DNA of 64,000 bases from Planctomycetota bacterium (GCA_016197205.1 JACPWG010000194.1:52429-116428); one strand, 5' to 3'; shown: positions 16,938-31,561, counted from the stretch's first letter. Numbers and translations: made by a program. The notes: a model not told the origin generated them from the letters alone.

Positions 16938-19250
16938 TCACTCCTCCCCGGCCAGCGACACCCTCACCCGCCCCGCCAGCCACGGCAGCTCCAGCGTCTC
17001 CTCCCGGAAACCGCCGACGCGCAACGACACTCCGAGCGGCCCGGGGTTGACCTCGATGCGCAGCTCTTCGCCCGCCCTCCGCATCCGCCCGCCGCCGGCC
17101 AGGAGCGCACCGCCCAAATAGGCGGCGCCCGACTGCTCAAGGCCAGGAAGCCGCCGAGCCAGCAGCCGGCAGGCCTGCTGGGCGAGCAGCATGGCCAGCC
17201 GGCACTCGTGCCCTTCCCCCGCCTCGTCGGGCAGTCGTTGCGCCTGGACCAAGTGGACCCATTCCCCCGTAAAACCACGGCGACGCGTGCGGGACCGCTC
17301 GTCCGCGTCGCGCGCCTCGCCGAACGAAGCCACCTCCGCGCCGAACTCCGCAGCGAGCGCGCGGCGCCCCCACCGCCCGAGCACGCGGCCGTCGACCGTG
17401 AGGCCGAGGCCCGGCCTCCCCCCGCGGCTTGCCTCGAGGGCGCCGCAATCGGTCAACCCGCGACGCGCCAGCGCCGCGGCCCCGCCCGCGTTCGCCTCCC
17501 CGATGCCCAGCCAGAGGCCCGTCGCGCACTCCTGAAACACCGCCGGACGCGGAGCGGTGTCGCCCGACCCGCGTCGAGGGTGATCGCCGGAGAGGGGGAG
17601 CGTGTCGACGCCCCCGGCGGGCGCGTCCGGGACGTGGAGCAGGAACCGTCCCCCGCCCAGGCGGCCCGATGCCCTCAGGCGCACGAGGAGCCCCCGCTGC
17701 GCGCGGAGCGCCGCCAGTCGATCCGGACCTCGGAACCCCGCCGCCAAATCCGCGTCCCGGGCGGCCCCGTTCAGCCCGACCACCGCGGGCAGCCGTTCGT
17801 CCAGCCGGGCGAGGCGGCCCGGCCAGCCCCCGAGGGCCGAGAGCAGGGCCGCGAGGAGGATGTGTCGCGCCTGCGTCTCCGCCACTCCCGCTTCGCGGAG
17901 GGACTCCCAGGCGCCCAGTTCCGAAAACGGACCGAGCAGCAGCGCGACCCCCGCCGTGTTGGACGACTCGTCGAAAATCCGCTCCGTGTCCTCCACCCGC
18001 CCGCCCAAAGCGCGCTCGAGCGCCTCGACCGGCCGCGACTCCCTGCTGTCGGCGAGCGGCCCCGCCCCCCGGACCTCCGGCCCCCGGACGTCCGCGTGTC
18101 GGCGGCCGTCCGCGGTCGGCCGACTCCCGGCCTCTCCGCGGTCCAAGCGACAGGCCAGGACCTCCTCCAGCCAGCCGCCCCCGCCCGGGCCCGCCGCGGA
18201 CCGCAAGGCCGTCAGGAAGTCCCGTCTCCCCAGCAGGCGCTCCACTTGCGCCACCTCGGCGGTGGGGAGGCTCTCCTCTCCCCGCAGGTACCGTAGCACG
18301 GAGGCCGGGTAGGGTAAATGCCGTAGGAGTGCGCGAAGCCGAGCCAGAAGGTCCAGCACGGCAGCGAGCCACGCGCGCTCGCGCGGCTCGCAGGTCGTCG
18401 GCAGGGCGAGAACCCAAGCGCGAAGCCGTTGGGCCGCGTTCCCCGCCGGCCCCCCGCCGCCCCCCGGGCTCCAACCGCCTCCCGTCCTCGCTCCTTCAGC
18501 GCGGGGGGCCGCATCCAGCGCGCGCGCCGCGAGCGCCGCGAGCTCTCTCAGCCTGCCACCCGTCGGCCACGGGCCCTGCCTTTCCGCCGCCTCCGCGGCC
18601 GCGGAGAGAAGCCGGCCGCACCCCTCCTCGCCGAGAAGGCGGACCAGCGCGTCCATCTCCCCCTGGTCCCGGAACGCCAGCAGGATGTCGCCGAGGTCCG
18701 CGGCGCATCGCGTCAGCGCTGCGAGCGCCCCCGCGCCGGGTGGGAGCGCACGCAGGGCCTCGTAACAGCGGAAATACCACCGATCCCAGGCGCGGCCGTC
18801 GAGAAGCTCGGCCAGAAAAGCGGCGACGAAATGCGAGGGGGTCGGAAAGCGAACGACCGGCGGGCCCTCCGGGGAGGCGGTCGCGAACCGCGCGCAGGCG
18901 GGGTCCTGGAGACTGCGGGCGAGCCCCTGCGAGACGGCGTCCGCCCAGGCGCGTGCGGCCGGCGCCCCGCCGTCCGGACCGCGACCGACGGCGCATTCCG
19001 TTGCCAGGGCCAGGTCCACCTCCACGCGCCGGACAAGGACCAACTCCTCCCCCGGCACAAGAAGTCCGCCCAGCGCGGGCTCGAGTTCGGCCGCCAGTCG
19101 CTCGGCCGCGCGGTCCAGCGCCCGCTTCAGGACCGACCCGCCCTCGTCCCCCTCCTCGTCGAGCAGATACTCGCAGACGTGGCGCGCGACGACGATCCCG
19201 CCGGGGACCGCCGCGTCCCGTGCGAAATCGGGCGATGCCCAGGCTTGCAT
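16938..19250 (-). CDS. Hypothetical 770-aa protein, last gene of the CIS-like island; candidate tail-length determinator (tape-measure-like) by position only
   Basis: ATG at 19250. Ala/Leu/Arg/Glu-rich composition predicted helical. The complementary-strand ORF 17429..19717 is a Pro/Arg-rich shadow frame. No family was recognised. Confidence 0.5.
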   Translation of the reverse strand: MQAWASPDFARDAAVPGGIVVARHVCEYLLDEEGDEGGSVLKRALDRAAERLAAELEPALGGLLVPGEELVLVRRVEVDLALATECAVGRGPDGGAPAARAWADAVSQGLARSLQDPACARFATASPEGPPVVRFPTPSHFVAAFLAELLDGRAWDRWYFRCYEALRALPPGAGALAALTRCAADLGDILLAFRDQGEMDALVRLLGEEGCGRLLSAAAEAAERQGPWPTGGRLRELAALAARALDAAPRAEGARTGGGWSPGGGGGPAGNAAQRLRAWVLALPTTCEPRERAWLAAVLDLLARLRALLRHLPYPASVLRYLRGEESLPTAEVAQVERLLGRRDFLTALRSAAGPGGGGWLEEVLACRLDRGEAGSRPTADGRRHADVRGPEVRGAGPLADSRESRPVEALERALGGRVEDTERIFDESSNTAGVALLLGPFSELGAWESLREAGVAETQARHILLAALLSALGGWPGRLARLDERLPAVVGLNGAARDADLAAGFRGPDRLAALRAQRGLLVRLRASGRLGGGRFLLHVPDAPAGGVDTLPLSGDHPRRGSGDTAPRPAVFQECATGLWLGIGEANAGGAAALARRGLTDCGALEASRGGRPGLGLTVDGRVLGRWGRRALAAEFGAEVASFGEARDADERSRTRRRGFTGEWVHLVQAQRLPDEAGEGHECRLAMLLAQQACRLLARRLPGLEQSGAAYLGGALLAGGGRMRRAGEELRIEVNPGPLGVSLRVGGFREETLELPWLAGRVRVSLAGEE

Positions 19251-19289
19251 CGGCTACCGCCTTAAGGCCTGTGACGTTCTCGGGGGCGC

Positions 19290-19683
19290 CCGCCATGCCG
19301 CCCGACCGTCCGCCTGCGGGCGGAACCACGAAAGGCGGCGTCGGCCCACGACAACTGCGGCCGCACTCGGACAACGGGCCACGAGTGGCCTGTTGCCGAG
19401 CTCCAGACACGAGGCCTGGGGGCGCGGGCCTCCCTCCTCCGCTCGCTCGCCGCGAGCTACGGAGCGCAGGCCCGCCCGCGAGAACGGCCCCATGGGTTGC
19501 GACCCGCCGTGGCAGGGTGGACGACGGGGTCCATCGTTCGTCAACGGGCCACGAGTGGCCTGTTGCCGAAGTCCAGATACGATGCCTGGGGGCGCGGGCC
19601 TCCGGCCCGCGCGAACGTCCGCACGGCGTACGACACGCCGTGACAGAGTTGACGACTGTGTCCGAAGTTCGTCAACGGGCCCC
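19290..19683. repeat. Tandem REP-like palindromic repeats (two full units plus a partial one)
   Basis: Unit: gacaacgggccacgagtggcctgttgccgagctccagacacgaggcctgggggcgcgggcctcc, with palindrome GGCCACGAGTGGCC. It repeats at ~19366 and ~19541, with a partial third copy at ~19660. cctgggggcgcgggcctccggcccgcg also occurs at 22540, 26300 and 63930. Confidence 0.6.
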
Positions 19684-20228
19684 TAGACGAACTCCACCGA
19701 GAGCTGGCCGGGCATGAGGTGGAGGTTTTCGTTGAAGACCCGGATCACCGCGACGCGTGACTCGCGACCCGACACCAGCCGGACCCTCGCCGCCCCGTTT
19801 CGAAGCTGCACCATCCAAATCTGCTTTCCTTCCGGATCCGTGAGCAGGCCGCCGTCCGTCCGCAGGTACACCCGGTCGTGGTCCGCGTCGCTCGCGAGCG
19901 AGTTTCCCTCCAGGTCCACCTTCTGGATTAGGATCGACGTGAAACTCTTTCCGTCCGCGCGGATCTCCGGGATGCCGTCCACCGGGTGCTTTCCCGGCGC
20001 GTCGCACGTCAGCACGAGACGCGCCGGCGGCGAGAAGTCCGGGTTCTCCAGGATCTTGCCCTCGACCGGATTCACCCGAAACGCCGCCAGCGGCTTCCGG
20101 CCCGGGTCGAAGTCCGCGACCAGCTTGTCCTGGTCTCCCACCGGCACCATGTACTCCTCGGCCCCCATGCACTGCCGGAGCCCCACGATCTTGCCGGAAC
20201 TCCGCTCGTACAGGATTTCGCTTCGCAT
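19683..20228 (-). CDS. Hypothetical 181-aa beta-rich protein downstream of the fibre genes (candidate fibre-assembly or tip accessory protein)
   Basis: ATG at 20228. No tube (F.VEIDG), PAAR or gp25 motifs were found. The chaperone idea rests on position only. Confidence 0.45.
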   Translation of the reverse strand: MRSEILYERSSGKIVGLRQCMGAEEYMVPVGDQDKLVADFDPGRKPLAAFRVNPVEGKILENPDFSPPARLVLTCDAPGKHPVDGIPEIRADGKSFTSILIQKVDLEGNSLASDADHDRVYLRTDGGLLTDPEGKQIWMVQLRNGAARVRLVSGRESRVAVIRVFNENLHLMPGQLSVEFV

Positions 20229-20431
20229 GGCTCGTCGCTCCTATCGCGCTCCGGCCGCACTTCGCGCCCGCGACCTTCGCCTTCCGCCATTTGAAATTTG
20301 ACTTTTTGCAATTTGGAATTTGAAATCGAGACTCTTTCGCGACTCCGTCTCTCGCGCCTGTACTCCACGTCGTCCCTGTCACGTTGCCTGAGCCGCCCCC
20401 GCCACGCTCATGCACCACGCCATCCGCGGGT

Positions 20432-22189
20432 CTACCCCCGCGGCGCCGTCCCCGGCGGCACCCGCCAGAGCTGGATCGTCAAGAGCACCGGGTGCAACGT
20501 AAGCCCGGCGACCGGCGCCCCCGAGGCCGCCGTGGAAAGGGCGGGGCTCGCCCCGCGGATCACCCGCAGCGTGTCCTCTGAGGCCAGCTCCACCGAGTAC
20601 CCGTAGGTCTCGCCGCCGAGGCCGAGCGGGCTCAGGTGCTCGCCCGTCGCCGTCACACGCCGCACGTAGGCCATGATCAGAAGGTCGGTCGTGCGCAGGC
20701 CGTGGAAGAGCGTCATGACCGCGGGCGCGGTCCCCTGCTCGAGTTGCACCCAGCCCGAGCGGAAATCCGGCACCGGGAGCCGGAACTTCACGTCCGTCAG
20801 CCCGCGCACCGTGAGGTTGCCCTCCACGACCACGTCTTCCTTCGCCGTGAACCGCTTCTGCACGCCCAGGTTGCGCCGGACCTCCAGGTCGCCGTGCGTC
20901 GTGACGTCGTCGTACAGCCCGACTTTTCGCCGCGCCCCGTCGGCGCTGTAGTTGCCGACGACCATCAGCTCCTTGTACGCGTCATTGTCGTTCACGATCG
21001 CCGCGCCGCCGGTCGGCTCGGTCGGCGTGATCGGCGACCAGGTCGTGTACCGCGGCAGCACCTTCCGCGTCTGCACGTCCCCCTCCGCCTCCACGTGCCG
21101 CAGCCAGAGGTCGGCCGGATGACCGGCGTCCGCGACCAGGGCGAATTTCTGCTTGTTCGTCAGGATCGTCGCCGCCTGTTGGTTCGGGGAGGCGAGCAGA
21201 TGGAGCGCATCGCGCCCCTCCTGCATCACGCCGCGCTCCCGCAGGTCCACCGTGATTTTTCCCCGGAAAATCGCCTGGTTCTGCACGGACAGGTCTCCTT
21301 GCGTCACCAGCGCCTCGTCAGCCAGGATCGACTTCCCTCGGAAGAGGTCCTTGTCCACGACCACGCGATTCCCGCCCTTGCCGTCGTTCGTGCGGACCAC
21401 GAGGTCGTGCGACGCGGTCCCGCGGTTCTCGTCCGCCGTCTTCGTGACGAGCGAGGAGTCGTTCTCGTTCGCTTCCAGCACCAGCCGGCCGCGCCCGTCC
21501 CCGATCGACCGCCCCACGGTCACCCGCCCGCGCACCGCCGCGTCCCCGGCGAACCGCGCGACCGCCGCGGCGATCCGGAGCTGCGCGGCGTCCGAGGGCG
21601 GCCGCACCTCCTCCGCGACCACGCCCACGTGTTTGCGCGCGCCGTTGTCCGCGTCCACGATTTTTCCGCCGTCCCAGAAGAGCCGGCCCACCGGGACCGG
21701 CCAGCGTCCCTTCTCCGGGTCGTCCGGGAGCGGGTCCGAGGGCTTCGGCGGGTTGGGGAAGGCCGGCTGGTCCCCCAGCAGCAGCCGGTACGTCTCGGTC
21801 CAGCGCGAGAAGGCCTCCGGGTCGGTCCCCGCTCCGGTCACGTTCGCCTGCAGCCGGTGGTAGGTCACCCACACCACGAAGGCGCCTTGTTTTTCGCGGA
21901 AGCCGCGCGCGACGAACTCCATCTCGTCGATGCGGGCCTCCTTGAGCACCAGGATCTCCCGGCCGAAACCGTCGACCGCCATCCCGGGCTCCAGGAAATA
22001 CTGCGGGCCCGCCGCGCCCTCCGCTTTCCGCTTGACGAGCGTGAGGCCGCTCACGATCCCCCAGGTGTGCTCGCCGATCGCATGTCGGCGCCGCATCTCC
22101 ATGTGGTACCGCTGCTCGTCCAGGAGGTCCTCCGGCGTCAGGAGCTGGCGCGCGCGGTAGAACAGGCGTTGCACTTCATCGCCGGGCAT
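20432..22189 (-). CDS. Fibre/receptor-binding-like protein C (585 aa) whose N-terminal ~90 aa are paralogous to the N-terminus of the 22640..25057 protein
   Basis: ATG at 22189, GGAGG Shine-Dalgarno 6 nt upstream. N-terminus LTPEDLLDEQRYHMEMRRRHAIGEHTWGIVSGLTLV...YFLEPGMAVDGFGREILV aligns with LLEVRDFQDEQAYHTGRRWFHAAALHGWGTVAGLWV...VLVEPGLALDGLGREILL of the neighbouring protein. The C-terminal parts are unrelated. Confidence 0.65.
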   Translation of the reverse strand: MPGDEVQRLFYRARQLLTPEDLLDEQRYHMEMRRRHAIGEHTWGIVSGLTLVKRKAEGAAGPQYFLEPGMAVDGFGREILVLKEARIDEMEFVARGFREKQGAFVVWVTYHRLQANVTGAGTDPEAFSRWTETYRLLLGDQPAFPNPPKPSDPLPDDPEKGRWPVPVGRLFWDGGKIVDADNGARKHVGVVAEEVRPPSDAAQLRIAAAVARFAGDAAVRGRVTVGRSIGDGRGRLVLEANENDSSLVTKTADENRGTASHDLVVRTNDGKGGNRVVVDKDLFRGKSILADEALVTQGDLSVQNQAIFRGKITVDLRERGVMQEGRDALHLLASPNQQAATILTNKQKFALVADAGHPADLWLRHVEAEGDVQTRKVLPRYTTWSPITPTEPTGGAAIVNDNDAYKELMVVGNYSADGARRKVGLYDDVTTHGDLEVRRNLGVQKRFTAKEDVVVEGNLTVRGLTDVKFRLPVPDFRSGWVQLEQGTAPAVMTLFHGLRTTDLLIMAYVRRVTATGEHLSPLGLGGETYGYSVELASEDTLRVIRGASPALSTAASGAPVAGLTLHPVLLTIQLWRVPPGTAPRG

Positions 22190-22236
22190 CGTCGCCTCCT
22201 CGGGTTCGTTTGGTGGGTTGCGGCTCCGCCGCGTTA

Positions 22237-22503
22237 GGGCCCGTAAGAAGATAACTTGCTCGTTGGACGCGCAGGGGGGCGACCTGAATTCTCAATGCTC
22301 AATTTTCAAGACTCAGACAAGGCTCAAGGTTCAATTCTCCATGACCACCATGGAACGTAGCCCGGGCAGGGAATTGCGGACTCTGAGCCTTGAACTTTGA
22401 GCCTTGTCTGAAAATTGATCCTTGAGCGTTGAGCCTTTTCCTGAGGAGCTCCCTGGTTTCCGAACTGCAGGAGCTGTTCCTGTACGCGCCCTTAGCGCCC
22501 GCG
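22237..22503 (+). mobile_element. MITE copy 1 (~267 bp, low GC) with terminal inverted repeats GGCCCGTAAG / CTTAGCGCCC and an internal ~45-bp hairpin
   Basis: ctcaatgctcaattttcaagactcagacaaggctcaaggttcaa pairs with ttgaactttgagccttgtctgaaaattgatccttgagcgttgag. The same element occurs at 37510-37756 (same orientation) and 30789-31052 (inverted) at about 90% identity. Confidence 0.65.
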
Positions 22504-22640
22504 CAAGAATTACTTTACATTTTCGTGGATCGACCGATGCCTGGGGGCGCGGGCCTCCGGCCCGCGCAGCGCGGCCCCGAGGGCCGCGCCCCCAGGAGCC
22601 TCGAGGTCCGAGTCTGCGCAGGTATTTTTTCGCGGGCGCT
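22494..22640. repeat. R1-prime: 147-bp direct repeat immediately downstream of the fibre-B stop; its partner R1 is at 26255-26400
   Basis: gcgcccgcgcaagaattactttacattttcgtggatcgaccgatgcctgggggcgcgggcctccggcccgcgcagcgcggccccgagggccgcgcccccaggagcctcgaggtccgagtctgcgcaggtattttttcgcgggcgc. Near identical to the 26255-26400 copy and contains a REP-like 15-bp-stem palindrome. Confidence 0.65.
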
Positions 22641-25057
22641 TAGGTGAGCGTGAACCAGCTTTCGAACGTCCCGCCCGCCGCCCCCGTCCCGGTCCGGTCG
22701 AGCGCGAAGGTCCCGTCCGGGTTCGGGAGGAACCGGGCCGCGGCCTCCACCGGCCGGTTGTTGCGGTCCAGGACCAGGTCCCCCCGCAGAACCAGCAGCA
22801 GGCGGTCTCCGGGCTTCACGAAGTCGCGGTAGTACGTCGACTCCTGCATCACGAGCGCGGCCGAGCGACCGTCCGCGCCGGGCCGGATCATCATCGGCGG
22901 CGAGGGGATCACGAAAAAAAGATACTCGCCTGTCTTCGGGTTGCTCCGCCGGATCCGGAGCTGCAGGGTCTCCTCGCGCAGGCACGCGGTGCGCACCTCG
23001 TGGTCGAAGACGACCTCCAGGCCGCGCAGCAGCTCGGGGCGCGCGATCGTCCCGCCGTGGGTCCAGTTGATGCGGACGATCCGGGTCCCCTCCGCGCCGG
23101 CCGCGGGGCCACCCGCCTGCCCTTCGACAGGCGCAGCCGGCGCCGCCGGCGCCGACGCCGCCGTGGGCGCGCCGGCCGAGGGCGCGAGCGCGGCGGGAAC
23201 GGCAGGTCCGCCGGGCGAGATGCGCGCCGACTCCGGGAAGGGGGCGCCGCGCGTCTGGGTGGACAGGCCCCGGATCGCCTCGGCGAGCACGTCCACCGGC
23301 GGCGCCAGCCGCCGCGCGACCCAGTTGTCGATCCGGTCCACGCCGATGCGCTCGCCGTCCGTGTACCTTGTGATCGCCGCAAGGAGGACCCGCTCCCCGC
23401 CCGCGCGCTCCCGCGGCTTCGCGACGGGCCTGCGCAGCAGGTCCAGCGTCGCCCCCTCTTCGAGCTCCACCAGCGTGACGGCGCCGCTGCCGGCCGCCAC
23501 GCCGCCCGGGTTCGCCACGTAGAGGCTCCGGCCCGTCGGGTCCAACGCAAGCCCCTGCGGGTTCTCGCCGACCTCGACGGCGAAGCCGAGCGCTTCCCCG
23601 CGCCCGGCGACCGCGGCCTCCACGTTGAGCACGCGCACCGAGCCCCGCCCTTCCCCCCCGGCCGCGTCCCCTGTGGCTACGAGCGCCCACTCGCCCGTCG
23701 CCGATACCAGCAGGTCCACCGGGGTCTGGGGGAGCTGCACCGTCGCGGCGCAGGTCGGGCCCGCGGGGGCGTCGAGGGTCCGGAGGTCGAGTATCTGCGC
23801 GCTCCGACCCCCGCGGCAGGTGACGACGAGCCAATGCCCCGCGGGCGTCACCGCGAGCCGGTCCGGTTCGGCGTCCGTCTTCACCTGGGCCGTCTTCGCC
23901 GGTCGCGCGTCCGCGACGGGCGCGGTCAGCCGCGTCGCGTCCAGGATCTCCACGCGGTCGTCCCCGGAGCATGCGACGAAGAGCCGGGCGCCGTCCGGCG
24001 TGAGCGCAAGCCCCCACGGCAGCCGGCCGGTGGGAAAGGCCGCGACCGGCGGCACGCCGCTCGGGCTCCGCGACCCTTGCAGGCTCCAGCAGAGCACCTG
24101 TCCCGTCCCGTCCGGCTCGCCGCGCCGCACGCCGAACAAGTGCCGCCCGTCCGCGCTCAGCCGCAGCGGACCCTTCTGCGCACCGGTCGCTCCGGCCACC
24201 GGAAACTCCGCGACGATCGCACGGTCCCGGCTCCGCTCCAACTCCTCCAGGTCCACTTCGAGGATGCGGTAGGGCGTCGAGGAGGTCTCCCGGGACGTGG
24301 AAATCCAGGCGCGCTTTCCGTCGGTCGAGACCGCCATCGACGCGGGCGCATTCCCGACGCTGATCGACGCGATCGGGGACTGGTTGTCCGCATGGAACAC
24401 GTGGAGCGTGCCCTGCTCCCCGCCGCCCAGGATCAGGAGCCGACGGCGGGACCCCACGAAGACCGCCTGGATCGGCCTGGGCACGACGATGGTGTGGGTC
24501 CACCGCATCCGGATGCGGGAGGGATCCGGCGGCGGCGGGGGAGGGAGCTCCTCCTCTCCCAGCACCTCGAGGGCGAACCCCTCCCGGATGCGATCCGGGG
24601 CGGCCGGCCCCGCGCCGCCCGGCTTGGCGACGCCCGCCGCACCCGCGCCCTGCGGCCTCGCGGCCTCCACCTCGGACTCGGCGTAGCGCGCGGCGATATA
24701 CAGCGTTCGCCCGAGCCCGGGAAACGCCTCCGCCGCTCCCCCCTTCGAGCGCGCGGCCGCGGCCACGTCCACCACCTGTTCCGACGAAAGCAAAATCTCC
24801 CGGCCCAGCCCGTCCAGCGCGAGCCCGGGCTCCACGAGGACCCGTCCGTCCGGTCCTGCCGGATGCGGCTTCACCCACAGCCCCGCGACCGTGCCCCAGC
24901 CGTGCAGGGCCGCGGCGTGGAACCAGCGGCGCCCGGTGTGGTAGGCCTGCTCGTCCTGGAAGTCGCGGACCTCGAGCAGCTTCCCCTTGAAATAGCGGAC
25001 GCGTTCGCCCGCGGCGCCGGGGACGCCGGCCGGTCCCGTTCCCACGCTCTCCGTCAC
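22640..25057 (-). CDS. Fibre/receptor-binding-like protein B (~806 aa): shared N-terminal anchor domain, YVTN/NHL-type beta-propeller repeats, and a C-terminal domain
   Basis: The real start is a GTG at 25057 that overlaps the TGA of the upstream gene (ctGTGAcgg). Upstream of 25057 the six-frame ORF is G/R/P-rich junk. Propeller-like repeats: DGKRAWISTSRE...YRILEVDL, DGRHLFGVRRG, DGARLFVACSGDDRVEILDA, AGHWLVVTCRGGRSAQILDL, RSLYVANPGG. Confidence 0.7.
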   Translation of the reverse strand: MTESVGTGPAGVPGAAGERVRYFKGKLLEVRDFQDEQAYHTGRRWFHAAALHGWGTVAGLWVKPHPAGPDGRVLVEPGLALDGLGREILLSSEQVVDVAAAARSKGGAAEAFPGLGRTLYIAARYAESEVEAARPQGAGAAGVAKPGGAGPAAPDRIREGFALEVLGEEELPPPPPPDPSRIRMRWTHTIVVPRPIQAVFVGSRRRLLILGGGEQGTLHVFHADNQSPIASISVGNAPASMAVSTDGKRAWISTSRETSSTPYRILEVDLEELERSRDRAIVAEFPVAGATGAQKGPLRLSADGRHLFGVRRGEPDGTGQVLCWSLQGSRSPSGVPPVAAFPTGRLPWGLALTPDGARLFVACSGDDRVEILDATRLTAPVADARPAKTAQVKTDAEPDRLAVTPAGHWLVVTCRGGRSAQILDLRTLDAPAGPTCAATVQLPQTPVDLLVSATGEWALVATGDAAGGEGRGSVRVLNVEAAVAGRGEALGFAVEVGENPQGLALDPTGRSLYVANPGGVAAGSGAVTLVELEEGATLDLLRRPVAKPRERAGGERVLLAAITRYTDGERIGVDRIDNWVARRLAPPVDVLAEAIRGLSTQTRGAPFPESARISPGGPAVPAALAPSAGAPTAASAPAAPAAPVEGQAGGPAAGAEGTRIVRINWTHGGTIARPELLRGLEVVFDHEVRTACLREETLQLRIRRSNPKTGEYLFFVIPSPPMMIRPGADGRSAALVMQESTYYRDFVKPGDRLLLVLRGDLVLDRNNRPVEAAARFLPNPDGTFALDRTGTGAAGGTFESWFTLT

Positions 25058-26217
25058 AGTCGCATGCCCTCTTCGCCGAGCACGGCGTCGACCCCGATCC
25101 GGGGCGCGGCCGGCCCCTCGGGGACGAGGGCCGGCCCCGGGCCCTCCTCCCCGACCCTGAAGTCGAAGAGCGTGTGCGCGGGCTTTTCCGCCTCCACCAC
25201 CCGGGCCAGGGCACGCCGCGCCGCGTCGTCCGCGCATTCGCCGGGGCGCAGCACGACCGTGAAGCGGTGCGCGTGCGCGTACCAGGCCTCCCGGTCCGGA
25301 TCCACCCCGACCCGGAAGGGCAGCTCGATGCCGGCACGCGGTTCCGCCTCGGTCGGCTCGGGCCGGCGCCGGAAGTGCTCCTCCAGGCTCGGCCGGCGGC
25401 CCAGGAAGGCCTCCAGCGCGTCCGCGATCCCCGCGGGCGTCCCCCGCGTCCGGAAGAGACGGCCCGCGCGCGCCAGAAAACGCCTCCGTGCCTCCGTAGG
25501 CCAGGCCGGGTCGTTCGCTACGCCCAGGATCCCCGCGAGCCACGGCAGGAAGTCCGCGGGCGCCGACAGCGGATCGAGCCGCGCCTGGAACTCCGTCGCG
25601 CCGCTCCGGATCGGCTCCAGCGCGCGGTCGAAGACCGAGACGAACCGTTCGAGGAAGCCGTCCCCCTTCGAGGATTCCCTGTAGACCGCCGGCAGGAAAC
25701 GCGCCGAGGTCACGCGCGGGAAGCGCACCGAGAGCGAGGCAAGCCTCGGCGTGGCCCGCGTGCCGCCGCGGAACGAAACCCGGATCCACAGGTACCGCCC
25801 CGCGCGGGACTGGACCAGGAACTCCGTCGGGTTCACCTGGGGCGACGACCACCCGTCCCCCGCCGCCGTCCCGGTCCCCGGCCTCGCGGGCGCGGGGTCC
25901 GCCGACTGCTCCGAAGTCAGCGTCTGGACGACCAGCGCGGTCCCCGTCGGGATGTCCGCTTCGAGCTCCACGCGGTGCCACGTGCAGCCCGCCTCCCCGC
26001 CGTCCAGCGGACCCAGGACCACCCGGCCCTCGGCCAAGAACCCCTGGCCGGAGCCGGGCGTGGCCGGAGGCAGGGTCCCGTCCGCCGGGAGCGGCAGCGA
26101 CCTGGACGCCAGCCGCAGCCCGTCCGGGAGCGCCTCCAGCCCCTCCATCCCCGCCCCGACCATGCGCCAGCCCGTCTCCGGGTCCAGGAGCAGGCAACGC
26201 AAGCCCGGGGTCATCAT
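25054..26217 (-). CDS. Baseplate wedge protein related to P2 gpI (Tail_P2_I-like region inside a longer protein)
   Basis: Start ATGATG at 26217. ...SAPADFLPWLAGILGVANDPAWPTEARRRFLARAGRLFRTRGTPAGIADALEAFLG resembles the P2 gpI core (FLPWLAW...W.E..KR......H..KGT.....AL). Sits between Baseplate_J and the fibre-like genes, as in P2 and Afp loci. Confidence 0.5.
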   Translation of the reverse strand: MMTPGLRCLLLDPETGWRMVGAGMEGLEALPDGLRLASRSLPLPADGTLPPATPGSGQGFLAEGRVVLGPLDGGEAGCTWHRVELEADIPTGTALVVQTLTSEQSADPAPARPGTGTAAGDGWSSPQVNPTEFLVQSRAGRYLWIRVSFRGGTRATPRLASLSVRFPRVTSARFLPAVYRESSKGDGFLERFVSVFDRALEPIRSGATEFQARLDPLSAPADFLPWLAGILGVANDPAWPTEARRRFLARAGRLFRTRGTPAGIADALEAFLGRRPSLEEHFRRRPEPTEAEPRAGIELPFRVGVDPDREAWYAHAHRFTVVLRPGECADDAARRALARVVEAEKPAHTLFDFRVGEEGPGPALVPEGPAAPRIGVDAVLGEEGMRL

Positions 26218-26254
26218 GCCTCTGTTCCCTGGAAGAAGGCCGAAGCGGTTCCTC

Positions 26255-26400
26255 GGCGCCCACGCAAGAACCACGTTACATTTTCGTGGATCGACCGATG
26301 CCTGGGGGCGCCGGCCTCCGGCCCGCGCAGCGCGGCCCAGAGGGCCGCGCCCCCAGGAGCCTCGAGGTCCGAGCCTGCGCAGTTATTTTTGCGCGGGCGC
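26255..26400. repeat. R1: 146-bp direct repeat immediately upstream of the gpI-like gene; partner of 22494-22640
   Basis: ggcgcccacgcaagaaccacgttacattttcgtggatcgaccgatgcctgggggcgccggcctccggcccgcgcagcgcggcccagagggccgcgcccccaggagcctcgaggtccgagcctgcgcagttatttttgcgcgggcgc. Confidence 0.65.
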
Positions 26401-26531
26401 TCGGTTGCTAGGGTATTCACCCTACGAACGTTCCTCTGCGTCTCCGCGCCTCCGTGTTTTCGTCTTTCGTCGCCCTTTCGGAGACCGTTCCCGCTTTGTT
26501 TTCCCCGCGCCCCACCCTCCTCCTCGCGTGC

Positions 26532-28451
26532 TCATCTCGCCACGACGGTCACTTCGTGGTCCCCGGACGTCACCAGGTCCGCCGCCGGGATCGCCACCTG
26601 CCCGTCCAGCGCGCACCGCTCGCCGTCGACGAGCACATGCGCCTCCAGCACGCGCCGCACCCCGGGGTGCCCCAGCAGCACCCGGTACGCCTCCGCGGGA
26701 TGCACGGCGCCGCCGAAGGGCCAGCCCTTCCCCTCCGGTCCGCCCCGCAGCGGGTGGAACCAGGTCGCGAGCGCCGCTTCGAGGTCCGCCTGGATGCGAC
26801 CCGGATCGGCGTCGGCGCGCGCCTCGACCTGCGCCCGCACCTGCGCCACGTGATACCCCGGCCCGACGACGTGCACCTCGGTCGTGATCAGCCGGTGCTC
26901 CTCCAGATGACGCTGCACGGCCTCGAGGGTCGCGCGCGACGGCTTCGGGCTTGACCCTCGCGCATCCGGTACGGCCACGACCGTCACGGCCCCGGGGAAC
27001 TCCACGCCCGGGTGTCGCGGATGCCGTAGCGGCAGTGCCCGCGCGCGCAGGATCCGAACCCCCGGTGTCCCGCGCGCGAGCTCCTCGAAATCCGCGGCAG
27101 TGACGGCGCGGTCCCCGGCCCGCAGGATCCCCGGCGCCCGCGCACGCAGCGCCTCCAACCCTTCCTCCTCCGCGCCGCCGTGCGCCGGGAAGAGGTTCGT
27201 GACGGTGTCCAGCCCCGGCACCGGGGTCGAAATGCGCGTGACCCGGCCCGCGGGCACGTTGCCGCGCGGCCCGCCGCCGTAACGGTACGACGCCGCGCGC
27301 ACGTTGTTCCTCCCCGTCGCGGGAATCCGGCCGTGCTTCCCGTCGCCGAAGCGGACCTCCCCCTTCAGCCGGTGGAGCGTGAAGTGGCGCTCCCCGCGTT
27401 GCGAGCCGCCGAGCGAGGACTTCTCCTCCCAGCGTTCCCAGCCGCGCCCCTCGTCCACGTCCAGGGAGAGGGTTCCGGCCAGGACCGGCGCGTGCTGGAG
27501 TCGGAAGCACTGCTCCGGCGTCCCGTCGCTCGAGCCGAGCACCTCCTCCCGGACCGTCACCGCCTGCGTCGCTTCGAGGGTGTTCGGCACGAGGCGCGCA
27601 ACCGAGGGCGCCGCGTCGTAGTCCGGCCGCACCACGCGCGCGCGGAACCAGTAAAGGTCGGCGGTTTCGATCCCCGCTTTTCCCCGCGCCAGTTCTCCGA
27701 CTTCCGCGAAAAGCAGGTTGCCGCCTCCGGTCAGGCCGCGCGAGTCGTCGCGCAGGACCCGCACCGAAGCCCAGGTCTTCCCGTCCCACGCCTCCCAGGC
27801 CAGGGCGTCGGCGAGGTGTCCCGGCCCCGGCGCGTGGCCGCAGGCGCCTTCCCCCGACGACTCCGCGCCGCCCGCCGGGAACACCGCGAGGCGGAGCGAG
27901 GCCCGGGGGAAGCGTCCCGGCGTTTCGAAGCCGAGGTAGAGCGCGCTCCCCTCCACCACGCGGGGCCCGAAGGGGAACCACGCCTCCAGCCCCAGGTCGT
28001 TCGCCGGCGTCTCGAGGACGTATTCCACCCCATCGAAGGACTGCACCGAACGCAGCGCGATGGGGAGCACCAGGAGTTCTTCGTCGGTTTCGAAGTAGAC
28101 GGGACCGTCGTCCCCCGGGCTCTCGACCTCGCACCGGGTTCCCGCCGGGACGGACAACGGCTCCTTGCGCTCCGCGCCCGCCCCGAACGTGAGCCACGCG
28201 CGCGCGGGCAGCGCCGGCCGCGGCTCGAGGCCCAGGAGCCGAAGCAGCTCGCGGTGACTGCGGTCCGGGACGCGATTGACCTGGTAGAGCAGCGCCTCGC
28301 CCATCCAGGCGAAGAGCGAGAGGAGCGTCATCCCGGGATCGCTCTCGCTGCGGTCCGTCCATTCCGGGGCGTAGCGCGGGATGAGGGCCACCATCTCCCG
28401 GAAGAGGTCGTCGTGCGTCCGTGGGTCGAGGCGCGGAACGTCGAAGGCCAT
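26532..28451 (-). CDS. Baseplate J-like protein (gp6/gpJ family, Afp11-like)
   Basis: ATG at 28451: MAFDVPRLDPRTHDDLFREMVALIPRYAPEWTDRSESDPGMTLLSLFAWMGEALLYQVNRVPDRSHRELLRLLG is a typical Baseplate_J N-terminus. The 238 codons upstream in the six-frame ORF are Arg-rich junk overlapping the gp25-like and spike-like genes. Confidence 0.8.
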   Translation of the reverse strand: MAFDVPRLDPRTHDDLFREMVALIPRYAPEWTDRSESDPGMTLLSLFAWMGEALLYQVNRVPDRSHRELLRLLGLEPRPALPARAWLTFGAGAERKEPLSVPAGTRCEVESPGDDGPVYFETDEELLVLPIALRSVQSFDGVEYVLETPANDLGLEAWFPFGPRVVEGSALYLGFETPGRFPRASLRLAVFPAGGAESSGEGACGHAPGPGHLADALAWEAWDGKTWASVRVLRDDSRGLTGGGNLLFAEVGELARGKAGIETADLYWFRARVVRPDYDAAPSVARLVPNTLEATQAVTVREEVLGSSDGTPEQCFRLQHAPVLAGTLSLDVDEGRGWERWEEKSSLGGSQRGERHFTLHRLKGEVRFGDGKHGRIPATGRNNVRAASYRYGGGPRGNVPAGRVTRISTPVPGLDTVTNLFPAHGGAEEEGLEALRARAPGILRAGDRAVTAADFEELARGTPGVRILRARALPLRHPRHPGVEFPGAVTVVAVPDARGSSPKPSRATLEAVQRHLEEHRLITTEVHVVGPGYHVAQVRAQVEARADADPGRIQADLEAALATWFHPLRGGPEGKGWPFGGAVHPAEAYRVLLGHPGVRRVLEAHVLVDGERCALDGQVAIPAADLVTSGDHEVTVVAR

Positions 28452-28486
28452 GGGCGTGCACTTCCTCTCGTGAGCTCCACACCGCG

Positions 28487-28921
28487 CTACAGCGGGTGCG
28501 GGTAAACCGTTTTTCCCGTCTCGCCGGTGGAACGGCTGCGATACTCCACTTCGAGCAGGACGCGCTTCTCGTCCTCCGGCGCGAACCGCGCGTGGACCGC
28601 AACCACGTCGATGCGCGGCTCGCACCGTTCCAGGGCCTCGCGGGCCAGATACTCCGCGGCGCCGAGGCTGCGCGAATAGCCGGGCGCCAGCCCGGCCTGG
28701 GCGAGTTTCGAGCCGAAGCTCGGGCTCATCAAGCTCTCCCCGCGCGCGGTCCCGAGGACGATCCAGATCGACTCCTCGAGCCGCCGCGTCTCGCCGGAGA
28801 GCGCGATGCCGCCTCCCGCCGTCGGACGAACGGGAAAGGCCCAGCCCCGCGGGGAACGGCCGCCATCGACGATCATGCGAGGCCTCGGAATGCGAGGAGC
28901 CACGAACCGCGCCGGTGCCAT
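28487..28921 (-). CDS. GPW/gp25-family baseplate wedge protein (Afp9-like)
   Basis: LEESIWIVLGTARGESLMSPSFGSKLAQAGL...AAEYLAREALERCEPRIDVVAV is the gp25 lysozyme-like signature (I..SI..IL.T..GER...P.FG..L). ATG at 28921 preferred; alternatives are GTG 28960 or ATG 28876. Confidence 0.8.
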   Translation of the reverse strand: MAPARFVAPRIPRPRMIVDGGRSPRGWAFPVRPTAGGGIALSGETRRLEESIWIVLGTARGESLMSPSFGSKLAQAGLAPGYSRSLGAAEYLAREALERCEPRIDVVAVHARFAPEDEKRVLLEVEYRSRSTGETGKTVYPHPL

Positions 28922-28969
28922 CCGCGGCGTTCGCCGCTCCAGCCGGCGGAACGAAAGCACGAAACGGCT

Positions 28970-29830: not shown

Positions 29831-30423
29831 GAGAACTCTCCGGGAGGGGGGAGGTCGAGGACGTCCCCCGGCCGGAGCGCAAGCGGGTCCTCGATGCCGT
29901 TGTGCGCGGCCAGCTCGGGCCAGCGCCGGGGGTCGCGGTACGCCTCGGCGGCGATGCGCGGCAGCGTCTCACCGTCCTTCACCACGTGTCGGCGGCTCCA
30001 GGACCGGCGCTCTTCGAGCGACCCCGGCCGGGCCGACCGGCCGCGCAGCGACAGCCGTACCGTGGCGCGCCGCGGCGTCCCGTCCGCGTCGAAGAGGAGG
30101 ATGCGGGCCGACGAGAGCTCCACGCGTCCGACGAACTCGAGATCGGGTCCCCACGTGAAGCGGCAGAGGGGGCTCCGCCCGTCCGGACCGGCGCCGAGCC
30201 CGGCATGGAAGCGGTCCAGGTCCTCCCGGACGCTCCCCGCGCGCGTCGTGCGGTCAAAAAAAAGTTCGACGACCAGCCGCTCGTTCGCCCGCTCGGACGC
30301 GTGCGGCGCGCGGCGCTCCAGCAGCAGCTCGGGCGGATTGAATTGGACTTCGACCGGGAGGTCGCCGGTATCCAGGTTGGCGAGCGCGGCCTTGGCCAGA
30401 GAGCTCAAACGGGCTCCCTCCAT
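29827..30423 (-). CDS. Tail tube initiator with a C-terminal LysM domain (Afp7/gp53-like)
   Basis: ATG at 30423 (MEGARLSSLAKAALANLDTGDLPVEVQFNPPELLLERR...RLVVELFFD). C-terminal LysM: HVVKDGETLPRIAAEAYRDPRRWPELAAHNGIEDPLALRPGDVLDLP. Confidence 0.7.
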   Translation of the reverse strand: MEGARLSSLAKAALANLDTGDLPVEVQFNPPELLLERRAPHASERANERLVVELFFDRTTRAGSVREDLDRFHAGLGAGPDGRSPLCRFTWGPDLEFVGRVELSSARILLFDADGTPRRATVRLSLRGRSARPGSLEERRSWSRRHVVKDGETLPRIAAEAYRDPRRWPELAAHNGIEDPLALRPGDVLDLPPPGEFS

Positions 30424-30581: not shown

Positions 30582-30788
30582 TCGATCCCTTCTCCGTTCG
30601 CGACGATCCAGGGCTTCCCCCGGAACCCATGCGCGGTCAACCCGCGTACACCGGGAGAGACGCCCTCCGGCGCCCCCCTGGCGCGGGAGGGCCGGGCCTT
30701 CGCCCACCGAAGCGGGCTGCGGCCCGCGGAGGCGGCGTGAGGGCGGCGGCACCCGGCTTCGACCTGGGTTGCGGCTCCCCCGTCTTGG

Positions 30789-31052
30789 GGCCCGTGAAGA
30801 AACAACTCACGCAGCTCGGAAACCGGGGAGTTCCTCAGGAAATGGCTCAAGGCCCAATGATCAATTTTCAGGCAAGGCTCAACGTTCAAAGCTCAGAGTC
30901 CGCGATTTCGTGCCCGGGCTACGTTCCGTGGTGGTCATTGAGAATTGAACCTTTGAGCCTTGTCTGAGTCTTGAAAATTGACCATTGAGAATTCTTGTCG
31001 CCTCCCTGCGCGTCAAACGAGCAAGTCATTCTCTTTTTTTGCGGGCCCTTAC
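30789..31052 (-). mobile_element. MITE copy 2 (inverted orientation), inserted directly after tube gene 2; its terminal repeat overlaps the tube-2 stop codon
   Basis: The reverse complement aligns to copy 1 across the internal hairpin (ctcaatggtcaattttcaagactcagacaaggctcaaaggttcaattctcaatgaccacc...). The terminal gcgggcccTTAcgcc includes the TAA of 31049-31051. Confidence 0.6.
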
Positions 31053-31555: not shown

Positions 31556-31561
31556 CGGCCG

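What the first reader, a model, noticed from the sequence alone, without database searches (positions are those of the whole stretch)
20432..26400. Two fibre-like paralogs share a ~90-aa N-terminal anchor domain but have unrelated C-termini, separated by a MITE and bracketed by 147-bp direct repeats
Proteins 22640-25057 (YVTN beta-propeller, C-terminal domain) and 20432-22189 start with the same conserved module (DEQ.YH...H..G.W.......PG.A.DG.GREIL) and then diverge completely. The gpI-like wedge plus the fibre-B pair is exactly bounded by near-identical 147-bp direct repeats (26255-26400 and 22494-22640). MITE copy 1 sits between fibre B and fibre C. This is the architecture expected for exchangeable receptor-binding modules docking to one baseplate site. 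Recombination between the direct repeats could delete or swap the wedge-fibre cassette, giving dual or alternative target specificity.
Basis: seen in the sequence. Interest (0 to 1): 0.72.

Follow-up and report, generated by a model that had tools for sequence, protein, structure and literature searches.

The report
Two-fibre injection-system baseplate plus stray MITEs
Two neighbouring genes of a phage-tail-like injection system in a Planctomycetes genome share a baseplate-docking head and carry different binding ends, which is a recently published, widespread design, and the "direct repeats" around one of them are two separate insertions of a small mobile element, not a swap mechanism.

Summary
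Proteins 22640-25057 and 20432-22189 (minus strand) share an N-terminal module (43% identity over 103 aa, E 2e-15) and nothing else. Two 145-bp repeats (93.8% identical) flank gpI plus fibre B, and a 255-bp MITE lies between the fibres.

The shared module is the TssK/Cis19/Alg19-type "shoulder" domain that docks fibres onto the Tail_P2_I (TssG-like) wedge protein. It best fits the eBAP3 class of Nachmias et al. 2026, who already report multi-fibre loci and model attachment through wedge-protein loops that takes up to four fibres per baseplate. In every related metagenomic locus with enough flank, 3-4 such paralogs sit in tandem, and their N-termini group by array position, not by locus. The paralogs are therefore old, fixed partners rather than exchangeable cassettes.

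R1 is a MITE-like element with terminal inverted repeats. Each copy has its own target duplication (TTA/TTA and TCG/TCG). R1 and the MITE are absent from the fibre B-fibre C spacer of a sister genome, which is 77 bp long. Deleting between the R1 copies would remove the docking adaptor itself.

Side notes: the cluster has no sheath or ATPase gene in 64 kb, and a third genome keeps only fibre B at this site.

The parts
25054..26217 (-). gpI-like wedge/adaptor protein (Tail_P2_I; Cis12/TssG analogue), 387 aa
   Evidence: Pfam Tail_P2_I at E 1.7e-14. NCBIfam CIS12_fam at E 1e-38 (133.6 bits, below the 860-bit cut-off) and TIGR02242. A homolog sits directly upstream of the first fibre paralog in all related loci.
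22640..25057 (-). Fibre B, 805 aa: shoulder-type N-terminal anchor, 7-bladed YVTN propeller, Ala/Pro linker, C-terminal beta domain
   Evidence: dN/dS is 0.42-0.44 against orthologs.
24731..25024 (-). Fibre B N-terminal anchor module (aa 12-109)
   Evidence: HMM match. Matches positions 5-89 of NCBIfam CIS13_fam at E 7.7e-16.
23453..24514 (-). Fibre B beta-propeller (aa about 182-535)
   Evidence: AF2 pLDDT 70-90. Foldseek top hit 1l0q (YVTN); YncE also matches.
22643..23092 (-). Fibre B C-terminal beta domain (aa 656-805), no family match
   Evidence: AF2 pLDDT about 50-74 per 10-residue block. No Pfam hit at E<=5. Conserved in L004 (68% aa identity by tblastn) and aligned end to end in L008 (54% over the whole protein).
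20432..22189 (-). Fibre C, 585 aa: shoulder-type N-terminal anchor plus an unmodelled, family-less distal part
   Evidence: dN/dS is 0.41 overall, 0.21 in the N-terminus and 0.53 in the C-terminus.
21620..22189 (-). Fibre C shoulder domain (aa 1 to about 190)
   Evidence: Most 10-residue blocks between residues 40 and 190 have pLDDT 80-89. Foldseek hits TssK (6n38, 5y0e, 5m30, 5mwn; probability 0.98-1.0) and Anabaena Cis19 (7b5h AA/AB/AC; probability 0.93-0.99).
22495..22639 (.). R1 copy 1, MITE-like element, flanked by TTA (22492-22494) and TTA (22640-22642, which is the stop codon of fibre B)
   Evidence: Alignment of the two copies with flanks. Terminal inverted repeats GCGCCCGCGCAAGAA / GCGCCCGCGAAAAAA. 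Folds as a rod, -98 kcal/mol, z -5.4. Absent from the orthologous site in L004.
26256..26400 (.). R1 copy 2, flanked by TCG (26253-26255) and TCG (26401-26403), 38 nt upstream of the gpI start codon
22237..22491 (.). MITE copy 1 (255 bp), flanked by TTA (22234-22236) and TTA (22492-22494), abutting R1
30788..31040 (.). MITE copy 2, between tube gene 2 and the small ORF/LysM gene. The same spacer is 52 bp in the sister MAG.
37508..37760 (.). MITE copy 3, between unrelated housekeeping genes (a DUF2520 protein and a glycosyltransferase)
26532..28451 (-). Baseplate J-like wedge protein (Cis11 analogue)
   Evidence: Pfam Baseplate_J at E 1.6e-23. TIGR02243 at E 4e-108.
19683..20228 (-). p181, conserved partner gene downstream of the fibres
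   Evidence: 86% aa identity to L004 with dN/dS 0.10. Homolog L006_164 occupies the same position.
16938..19250 (-). p770, second conserved downstream gene, no family match
   Evidence: Homologs in L004 and L006_518. No Pfam, NCBIfam or PHROG hit.

Best explanation
This region is the baseplate-periphery module of a contractile-injection-system (eCIS-type) gene cluster in a Planctomycetes MAG. Fibre B and fibre C are two ancient paralogs. Both begin with a TssK/Cis19/Alg19-like 'shoulder' domain, which best fits the eBAP3 class.

Inferred mechanism: each paralog forms a trimer whose shoulder clamps a loop of the Tail_P2_I (TssG-like) wedge protein encoded just upstream. Both fibres then sit on every particle at separate docking points. 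They present a YVTN propeller plus a C-terminal beta domain (fibre B) and an unrelated distal part (fibre C) as two different binders.

R1 and the 255-bp MITE are unrelated passengers. They are small non-autonomous transposable elements with similar terminal inverted repeats. They landed in intergenic spacers of this genome: R1 exactly on the fibre B stop codon, the MITE into the duplicated TTA beside it, and a second R1 between J and gpI.

Shown here: the homology, the domain fold, the tandem conservation, and the insertion signatures. Inferred: trimerisation, loop docking, simultaneous occupancy, and the binding role of the distal parts.
For: - Shared module: E 2e-15 between the two proteins.
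- Both N-termini match positions 5-89 of NCBIfam CIS13_fam.
- A profile of the module hits the N-terminus of Anabaena Cis19 (All3314, 7b5h; E 6e-6) and of AlgoCIS Alg19 (9wt0; E 0.049).
- The fibre C model matches TssK and 7b5h by fold.
- The Alg19 shoulder binds the C-terminal loop of Alg12, as TssK binds TssG (PMC13314943).
- Published for eBAP3: a shoulder-like domain of about 200 aa, Tail_P2_I loop attachment, up to four fibres, 23.4% of loci multi-fibre (PMC12923769).
- The module occurs in 13,056 50%-identity clusters. It gave only 1 hit in 2.9 million viral contigs.
- All 25 related loci with enough upstream flank carry 3-4 tandem paralogs after a Tail_P2_I gene.
- The modules cluster by array position.
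- Tail_P2_I length rises with fibre number: 266-455 aa for 1 fibre, 387 aa for 2, 579-1210 aa for 3-4.
- The sister MAG keeps fibre B, a 77-bp spacer, then fibre C.
- Both fibres are under purifying selection.
- R1 has terminal inverted repeats and copy-specific flanking duplications. The local layout is TTA-MITE-TTA-R1-TTA. Removing both elements leaves a 44-nt spacer with GAGGAGG just upstream of the fibre C ATG.
Against: - No experiment or multimer model was run here, so simultaneous occupancy and loop docking are inferred from published systems.
- The authors' eBAP3 HMM was not available, so the eBAP3 versus eBAP4 assignment rests on context and fold.
- The distal 400 aa of fibre C could not be modelled (pLDDT below 50).
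- The cluster lacks sheath, ATPase and tape-measure genes within 64 kb. Whether a working particle is made at all is therefore unproven.
- Fibre B branches near, not inside, the position-1 clade.
- Only two full R1 copies were seen, both next to this gene pair. Their spread across the rest of the genome is unknown.
Confidence: 0.7

Rival explanations
1. B and C are alternative receptor-binding proteins for one docking site, and homologous recombination between the two R1 direct repeats deletes or swaps the gpI-fibre B cassette to change target range.
For: The R1 copies are direct, 93.8% identical over 145 bp, and hold identical blocks of 36, 26 and 34 nt, which is enough for rare RecA-type recombination. 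They do bracket gpI plus fibre B. Presence/absence variation of CIS genes exists among relatives (L008).
Against: Each R1 copy keeps its own matching flanks, TTA/TTA and TCG/TCG, so no exchange between the copies is recorded. R1 is absent from the sister MAG, which still has B followed by C. The deletion would remove the Tail_P2_I adaptor that fibre C itself would need. The paralogs are ancient and position-specific. The gene-content boundaries in L008 do not coincide with R1 on the upstream side. Contigs assembled from the same sample match the window at 99.95-100% identity and show no alternative junction, although they break inside the repeats. No recombinase, invertase or reverse transcriptase was found among the window genes scanned.
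Confidence: 0.06
2. Decaying or re-purposed remnant. The cluster is no longer a working contractile system because it has no sheath, ATPase or tape measure, and the 'fibres', fibre B especially, now act on their own, for example as surface or adhesion proteins.
For: No sheath, ATPase or tape-measure gene lies anywhere in the 64 kb. The same sheath-less order occurs in the sister MAG, whereas a distant locus has two sheath genes between the cap and the tubes. A third genome keeps only a fibre B homolog at the syntenic site. MITEs have accumulated in the spacers of the cluster.
Against: All cluster genes are intact and under purifying selection between the two MAGs, with dN/dS 0.10-0.50, comparable to the neighbouring housekeeping genes at 0.19-0.35. 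gp25 and the Pvc16-type cap are retained, and in known systems both work with a sheath. These MAG contigs are short, and missing genes may simply lie elsewhere, since the rest of the genome could not be searched. The anchor module of the orphan fibre B is also conserved (dN/dS 0.40).
Confidence: 0.15
3. R1 is a functional RNA element rather than a mere passenger. A very stable hairpin placed 3' of J and 3' of fibre B would split the operon transcript into segments of different stability, as REP elements do in E. coli operons.
For: R1 folds into a rod of -98 kcal/mol, z -5.4. Both copies lie on the transcribed strand downstream of an ORF, 131 nt after J and immediately after fibre B.
Against: There is no U-tract or terminator-like site and no Rfam match. 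R1 is absent from the sister MAG. Position after an ORF is what any intergenic insertion in a co-directional cluster would show. No expression data exist.
Confidence: 0.09

Closest known systems
eBAP3-type multi-fibre eCIS loci (Nachmias et al., Nat Commun 2026, PMC12923769)
   Same: An N-terminal shoulder-like anchor of about 200 aa. Fibre genes lie directly downstream of a Tail_P2_I gene in a locus with Baseplate_J, gp25 and Pvc16_N. A beta-propeller occurs in the fibre, with collagen repeats in orthologs. There is more than one fibre per locus, and the baseplate shows TssK/TssG-like homology.
   Different: The host phylum, Planctomycetota, is not mentioned in the main text or in the supplementary files held as text, some of which were cut when stored. 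This locus has two fibres, where the relatives sampled here have 3-4. No sheath or ATPase is present in the locus. MITEs are inserted in the spacers. The authors' HMM could not be run.
Cis19 (All3314) crown trimers of the Anabaena thylakoid-anchored CIS, and the Alg19 tail fibre of AlgoCIS (PDB 7b5h, 9wt0)
   Same: The N-terminal module is homologous by sequence profile (E 6e-6 and 0.049) and by fold. Both are trimeric baseplate-peripheral proteins. The Alg19 shoulder docks on a loop of the wedge protein Alg12.
   Different: Those systems use Afp11/12-type wedges (the eBAP4 class), have one such protein per locus of about 1450 aa with Ig/PKD chains, and their distal parts differ entirely.
TssK-TssG of type VI secretion baseplates (PDB 6n38, 5mwn)
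   Same: TssK structures are the best structural matches of the fibre C shoulder domain. In this system a wedge protein (TssG) binds TssK trimers.
   Different: Neither fibre has a TssK Pfam match, and no other T6SS genes are present. Here the paralogs differ and carry long distal domains.
Bacterial MITEs such as Correia, ERIC, RUP or Nezha elements (named from general knowledge, not tested against them)
   Same: R1 (145 bp) and the 255-bp element are short and non-coding, have terminal inverted repeats, fold as hairpins, carry short flanking duplications, sit in intergenic spacers, and occur in several diverged copies.
   Different: There is no sequence relation to any named family. No Rfam hit was found. 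No partner transposase lies in the window, and the copy number across the whole genome is unknown.
Phages and tailocins with several receptor-binding proteins on a shared N-terminal anchor, or with switchable fibres (Mu Gin, P1 Cin); named from general knowledge
   Same: A conserved N-terminal attachment part combined with variable distal binding parts.
   Different: The module is nearly absent from viral contigs, with 1 hit, and from PHROGs. No invertase and no inverted repeats flank the fibres; the repeats here are direct MITE copies.

Membership tests
eBAP3-type eCIS tail fibre (PMC12923769) | N-terminal domain of about 200 aa with a shoulder-like fold resembling the tCIS crown and TssK | tested here: met
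   In the fibre C model most 10-residue blocks between residues 40 and 190 have pLDDT 80-89. Foldseek hits TssK at probability about 1.0 and 7b5h Cis19 at 0.93-0.99. Fibre B shares the module at 43% identity.
eBAP3-type eCIS tail fibre (PMC12923769) | Match to the authors' eBAP3 HMM, as opposed to eBAP4 or eBAP5 | not testable with these tools
   The supplements hold gene-ID lists only, with no HMM or sequences. eBAP5 (DUF6519) is excluded because there is no Pfam hit. The sequence-profile hit to All3314, the eBAP4 prototype, shows the classes are related.
eBAP3-type eCIS tail fibre (PMC12923769) | Encoded downstream of a Tail_P2_I gene in a locus of the Tail_P2_I baseplate type | tested here: met
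   gpI (Tail_P2_I) ends at 25054, overlapping the fibre B start. Baseplate_J, gp25, CIS_tube and Pvc16_N lie upstream.
NCBIfam NF053767 CIS13 family (equivalog) | Whole-protein score at or above the curated cut-off of 370 bits | tested here: not met
   Fibre B scores 58.3 bits and fibre C 37.1 bits. Only profile positions 5-89 of 392 are matched.
T6SS TssK | TssK family sequence match and a T6SS gene context (TssF, TssG, TssB/C and others) | tested here: not met
   The fibres have no TssK Pfam hit, and no T6SS genes are in the window. Only the shoulder fold is shared.
Complete extracellular contractile injection system locus | Sheath gene(s) | tested here: not met
   No Phage_sheath hit among 48 of the 49 predicted genes of the window that were scanned. 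The gene order Pvc16_N-tube-tube leaves no room for one. The sister MAG is the same. The rest of the genome was not searchable.
Complete extracellular contractile injection system locus | Tube, cap, spike, gp25/J/I wedge, fibres | tested here: met
   Two Phage_T4_gp19 genes, Pvc16_N, CIS_tube+LysM, a VgrG-related protein, GPW_gp25, Baseplate_J and Tail_P2_I.
Complete extracellular contractile injection system locus | Cis15 AAA ATPase and a tape-measure protein | tested here: not met
   Neither is in the cluster. The only AAA protein in the window is a MoxR-type gene at 586-1536, which is unrelated. Related loci L006 and L039 carry the ATPase after the fibres.
MITE (for R1) | Terminal inverted repeats | tested here: met
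   GCGCCCGCGCAAGAA (22495-22509) against GCGCCCGCGAAAAAA (reverse complement of 22625-22639). The same holds for copy 2.
MITE (for R1) | Target-site duplication specific to each copy | tested here: met
   TTA at 22492-22494 and 22640-22642. TCG at 26253-26255 and 26401-26403. The exact length is ambiguous (2-5 nt) because the neighbouring bases CT..G are the same in both copies.
MITE (for R1) | Empty site in a relative | tested here: met
   Met for copy 1: in L004 the fibre B stop is followed by a 77-bp spacer without R1 or the MITE. No comparator sequence covers the site of copy 2.
MITE (for R1) | Many dispersed copies and a partner transposase | tested here: inconclusive
   There are two full copies, plus a 33-nt and a 20-nt hairpin-arm fragment, in 64 kb. 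No transposase is in the window.
Site-specific fibre switching (invertible or shufflon-type, or DGR) | Recombinase or reverse transcriptase with inverted repeats or template repeats at the fibre 3' ends | tested here: not met
   No such gene was found in the window. The repeats are direct and lie outside the coding sequence.

The most novel reading that the evidence does not exclude
The Planctomycetes cluster may be a sheath-less, ATPase-less derivative of an eCIS: cap, tube, spike, wedge and two fibres, kept under purifying selection in two genomes. Its first fibre persists alone at the same chromosomal site in a third genome. That would make it a non-contractile or otherwise re-purposed tail-like apparatus, or a stand-alone shoulder-propeller surface protein, rather than a conventional injection system whose missing genes lie elsewhere.
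Probability: 0.12. Interest if true: 0.7.

Novelty: new member of a known kind. Interest (0 to 1): 0.27.

Why it matters
As it stands, this adds a Planctomycetota example with two fibres to the multi-fibre, Tail_P2_I-type eCIS class catalogued in 2026.

It also adds a comparative point not seen in the parts of that paper read here. In the lineage sampled, the fibre paralogs form position-specific orthologous groups, and the Tail_P2_I adaptor is longer where there are more fibres. Both argue for simultaneous, site-specific docking rather than alternative use. That bears on how target range is encoded, and on engineering eCIS particles that carry two binders at once.

The MITE result is a caution. 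Direct repeats around a gene pair in a repeat-rich genome need flank analysis before they are read as a cassette mechanism.

The sheath-less but conserved cluster is the only item here that could turn out to be surprising.

Tried and rejected
- Exact look-ups of the window's own fibre B and fibre C proteins returned only short Logan contigs (1990 and 3691 bp) that break inside the repeats. The 120-kb source contig could not be read beyond the window.
- The full 27-sequence module alignment was too divergent for locus scanning. Both searches were rerun with subsets.
- Sequence searches of both fibres against the PDB found nothing for the N-terminus. Only the profile and the fold search did.
- Distal fibre C (aa 191-585) could not be modelled and has no Pfam or PHROG match even at E<=5.
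- The fold search of fibre B was swamped by propeller hits and said nothing about its C-terminal domain.
- R1 as an intrinsic terminator: rejected, because no T-run or terminator-like site is present.
- R1 or the MITE as a known RNA family: rejected.
- tRNA-linked integration: rejected, because the window has no tRNA genes.
- Phage origin of the module: rejected, with 1 hit in IMG/VR and none in PHROGs.

Full report
**Source and setting.** The window comes from a Planctomycetes metagenome-assembled genome. Fibre C is identical to a protein named 'MAG: hypothetical protein HYZ53_30970 [Planctomycetes bacterium]' on a 120,694-bp contig. GC content is about 70%.

A frame-bias gene call plus Pfam and NCBIfam scans show a co-directional minus-strand cluster. 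In order it encodes:
- Pvc16_N cap (31900-32520)
- two gp19-type tube genes (31562-31951 and 31049-31555)
- a small conserved ORF (30417-30581)
- a CIS_tube+LysM protein (29827-30408)
- a VgrG-related protein (28970-29830)
- gp25 (28487-28876)
- Baseplate_J (26532-28451)
- Tail_P2_I/gpI (25054-26217)
- fibre B (22640-25057)
- fibre C (20432-22189)
- two family-less genes, p181 (19683-20228) and p770 (16938-19250)

Housekeeping genes lie on both sides: frr, pyrH, tsf and rpsB on one, and an amidohydrolase, a DUF2851 protein and shikimate kinase on the other.

**Checking the observation.**
- The two proteins align over their first 103 residues at 43% identity (E 2e-15) and nowhere else.
- Fibre B continues into a seven-bladed YVTN/YncE-type propeller. 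After that come a disordered Ala/Pro-rich linker and a C-terminal beta domain of about 150 aa with no family match.
- Fibre C has no Pfam or PHROG match beyond the shared module.
- The two R1 copies are real. Their 145-bp cores, 22495-22639 and 26256-26400, are 93.8% identical.
- The MITE between the fibres (22237-22491) has two more copies in the window. One lies inside the cluster at 30788-31040. The other lies between unrelated genes at 37508-37760.

**What the shared N-terminus is.**
- Both N-termini match positions 5-89 of NCBIfam's CIS13 family model. The scores (37 and 58 bits) are far below its 370-bit cut-off, so only the N-terminus is shared.
- A profile built from 27 module sequences hits two solved structures. 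One is residues 14-88 of All3314 in PDB 7b5h (E 6e-6). The other is residues 13-80 of a 1443-aa 'PKD domain-containing protein' in 9wt0 (E 0.049).
- All3314 is Cis19, the trimeric 'crown' of the Anabaena thylakoid-anchored CIS (PMC8894136).
- The length and description of the second protein match Alg19, the AlgoCIS tail fibre. Its 'shoulder' domain folds like TssK and like lactococcal phage receptor-binding proteins, and it clamps the C-terminal loop of the wedge protein Alg12 (PMC13314943).
- An AlphaFold model of fibre C is confident mainly between residues 40 and 190. Its best PDB matches by fold are TssK (6n38, 5y0e, 5m30, 5mwn; probability 0.98-1.0) and the three Cis19 chains of 7b5h. Phage p2 receptor-binding protein appears further down the list.

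**This architecture is already published.** Nachmias et al. (Nat Commun 2026, PMC12923769) classify eCIS fibres by five N-terminal anchor domains, eBAP1-5.
- eBAP3 is a shoulder-like domain of about 200 aa found in 1420 genes. It often sits on fibres that combine a beta-propeller with a collagen-like shaft.
- eBAP3 and eBAP5 loci use Tail_P2_I adaptors. [quoted passage not shown]
- Their Tail_P2_I proteins resemble TssG, and their eBAP3 fibres resemble TssK.
- Of all loci, 23.4% have more than one fibre gene, with a maximum of five.
- Fibres B and C fit eBAP3 by fold, by gene context and by the propeller. Orthologs of fibre B carry collagen repeats.
- I could not run the authors' HMM, because the supplements hold only gene IDs. 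The eBAP3 versus eBAP4 assignment is therefore by context. eBAP5 (DUF6519) is excluded because there is no Pfam hit.

**Exchangeable cassettes or fixed partners?**
- The module is very common: 13,056 clusters at 50% identity. It is essentially absent from viral contigs, with 1 hit.
- A metagenome scan returned 80 loci. In all 25 loci with at least about 4.5 kb upstream of the match, three or four consecutive same-strand genes each begin with the module.
- A Tail_P2_I homolog immediately precedes each such array. One locus checked in full has the expected spike, gp25, J, P2_I and AAA-ATPase neighbours.
- In a neighbour-joining tree the modules fall into clades by position in the array, not by locus. 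Fibre C joins the last-position clade. Fibre B, together with its ortholog from L008, branches alone, closest in identity to position 1.
- The duplications therefore predate the divergence of these loci, and each paralog has kept its own N-terminal type.
- Tail_P2_I length tracks fibre number: 266-455 aa with one fibre (L087, L090), 387 aa with two (this window), and 579-1210 aa with three or four.
- The sister MAG (GCA_016220045.1) has fibre B, a 77-bp spacer, fibre C, p181, a 17-bp spacer and p770.
- Both fibres are under purifying selection, at dN/dS about 0.4. The fibre C anchor is the more constrained part (0.21 against 0.53 for its C-terminus).
- Taken together, this favours two different fibres docked at the same time on different points of each wedge. 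It does not favour alternatives competing for one site. Docking and co-occupancy remain inferences from published systems.

**What R1 and the MITE are.**
- Aligning the two R1 copies with their flanks shows that similarity starts and stops sharply at GCGCCCGCG...CGCGGGCGC, which are 15-nt imperfect terminal inverted repeats.
- Each copy is bracketed by its own short duplication: TTA...TTA for copy 1 and TCG...TCG for copy 2.
- The right-hand TTA of copy 1 is the stop codon (TAA) of fibre B.
- The 255-bp MITE has similar termini (GGGCCCGTAAGAA) and is itself bracketed by TTA. The local structure is TTA-MITE-TTA-R1-TTA.
- Removing both elements and one TTA each leaves a 44-nt fibre B-fibre C spacer with GAGGAGG just upstream of the fibre C ATG. 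This resembles the 77-bp spacer in the sister MAG, which contains neither element.
- MITE copy 2 likewise expands a 52-bp spacer of the sister MAG.
- R1 folds into a near-perfect rod (-98 kcal/mol, z -5.4). It is not terminator-like and matches no Rfam family.
- The two R1 copies are therefore independent insertions of a small non-autonomous element into neighbouring spacers of a genome whose intergenic regions hold several repeat families. They are not the borders of a duplicated or mobile cassette.
- Recombination between them is physically possible. It would delete gpI, the adaptor on which any fibre depends. The intact copy-specific flanks record no such exchange.
- Contigs assembled independently from the same sequencing run match the window at 99.95-100% identity. 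They simply break inside the repeats, so they neither show nor exclude rare variants.

**Two side observations outside the finding's coordinates.**
- First, no sheath, Cis15 ATPase or tape-measure gene lies anywhere in the 64 kb. The sister MAG has the same Pvc16_N-tube-tube-small ORF-LysM-VgrG-gp25-J order, with dN/dS of 0.19-0.50. A distant locus has two sheath genes between the cap and the tubes. The missing genes may lie elsewhere in these fragmented genomes, and I could not search them.
- Second, a third related genome (Logan contig L008) keeps the flanking housekeeping synteny at 71-86% nucleotide identity. Between the amidohydrolase gene and frr it has only a fibre B homolog (54% aa identity, anchor module intact). 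The window's gene order matches the canonical order of distant loci, so L008 most likely lost or relocated the other genes.
- These points leave a minority reading open: that the apparatus in this lineage is reduced or re-purposed.

**Verdict.** The anchor-plus-variable-tip reading is correct but already described in the literature. The one-site exchange and R1-recombination ideas are not supported. This is a new member, from a phylum not mentioned in the catalogue text I could search, of a known kind of multi-fibre eCIS baseplate, decorated by unrelated MITE insertions.

Noticed in passing
window 16938-32520 (whole cluster); L091 1-6553; L092: The injection-system cluster has cap, tubes, spike, wedge and fibres but no sheath, AAA ATPase or tape-measure gene anywhere in the 64 kb. 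The same sheath-less gene order is conserved in a sister MAG under purifying selection (dN/dS 0.19-0.50). A distant relative has two sheath genes between the cap and the tubes.
   Followed up: partly
L008 7145-9508 (Logan SRR22388351 contig): A related genome has the same housekeeping flanks (DUF2520, shikimate kinase, DUF2851 and amidohydrolase on one side, frr and pyrH on the other). Between them lies only a fibre B homolog (54% identity, anchor module intact) and no other injection-system gene.
   Followed up: partly
window 16560, 16758(-), 26432, 32683, 35577(-), 42208, 51148: A 21-nt motif, TCCTCTGCGYCTCYGCGYCTC, occurs 7 times (0.02 expected by chance), always in intergenic spacers. The longer repeat families that contain it are 49-63 nt. 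One copy sits beside R1 copy 2 in the J-gpI spacer. Its function is unknown; it may be another repeat family or a promoter-associated element.
   Followed up: partly
window 19350-19686: The p181-p770 spacer is 433 bp of 131/170-bp tandem-like repeats. They include a 33-nt stretch identical to the left hairpin arm of R1 (19580-19612 = 22535-22567). The same spacer is 17 bp in the sister MAG.
   Followed up: partly
window 22495-22509, 22625-22639, 26256-26270, 26386-26400, 22237-22249, 31034-31048: R1 and the 255-bp MITE have similar terminal inverted repeats (GCGCCCGCGCAAGAA against GGGCCCGTAAGAA), and one copy of each (R1 copy 1 and MITE copy 1) sits in a TTA target. This suggests one transposase family mobilises both. 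No transposase gene is in the window.
   Followed up: partly
L087, L090, window, and 3-4-fibre loci such as L006, L026, L034, L039: The length of the Tail_P2_I adaptor rises with the number of fibre paralogs that follow it: 266-455 aa for one, 387 aa for two, and 579-1210 aa for three or four. The longer ones often carry NHL repeats.
   Followed up: partly
window 30417-30581 (-): A conserved ORF of about 55 aa lies between tube gene 2 and the LysM-tube gene. It is 67% identical to a 58-aa ORF in the sister MAG and gives a weak DUF5908 hit at E 0.019. It may be the small spike-plug (Cis6-like) protein.
   Followed up: partly
window 19683-20228 and 16938-19250; L006 11609-13835: Two family-less genes, p181 and p770, follow the fibres both here and in distant loci (L006_164, which has a weak Invasin_D3 hit, and L006_518). 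p181 is the most conserved gene of the cluster (dN/dS 0.10). Their roles are unknown; a fibre chaperone or accessory role is one possibility.
   Followed up: partly
alignment A3 (module sequences from L006, P0022, P0025-P0029 and others): Position-1 and position-2 type modules carry conserved cysteines (C..CGL...C...DCCG) that are absent from fibre B and from the fibre C type. These may be disulfide or metal sites.
   Followed up: no
window 6282-6406: A separate hairpin with 42-nt arms (86% complementary, 41-nt loop) lies in the spacer upstream of the cNMP-binding protein gene. It is unrelated in sequence to R1 and the MITE.
   Followed up: no
window 32554-32581 (-): The best sigma-70-like match of the region (TTGAAT-16-TATAAT, 10 of 12) lies 34 nt upstream of the Pvc16_N start. 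It is a candidate promoter for the whole cluster.
   Followed up: no
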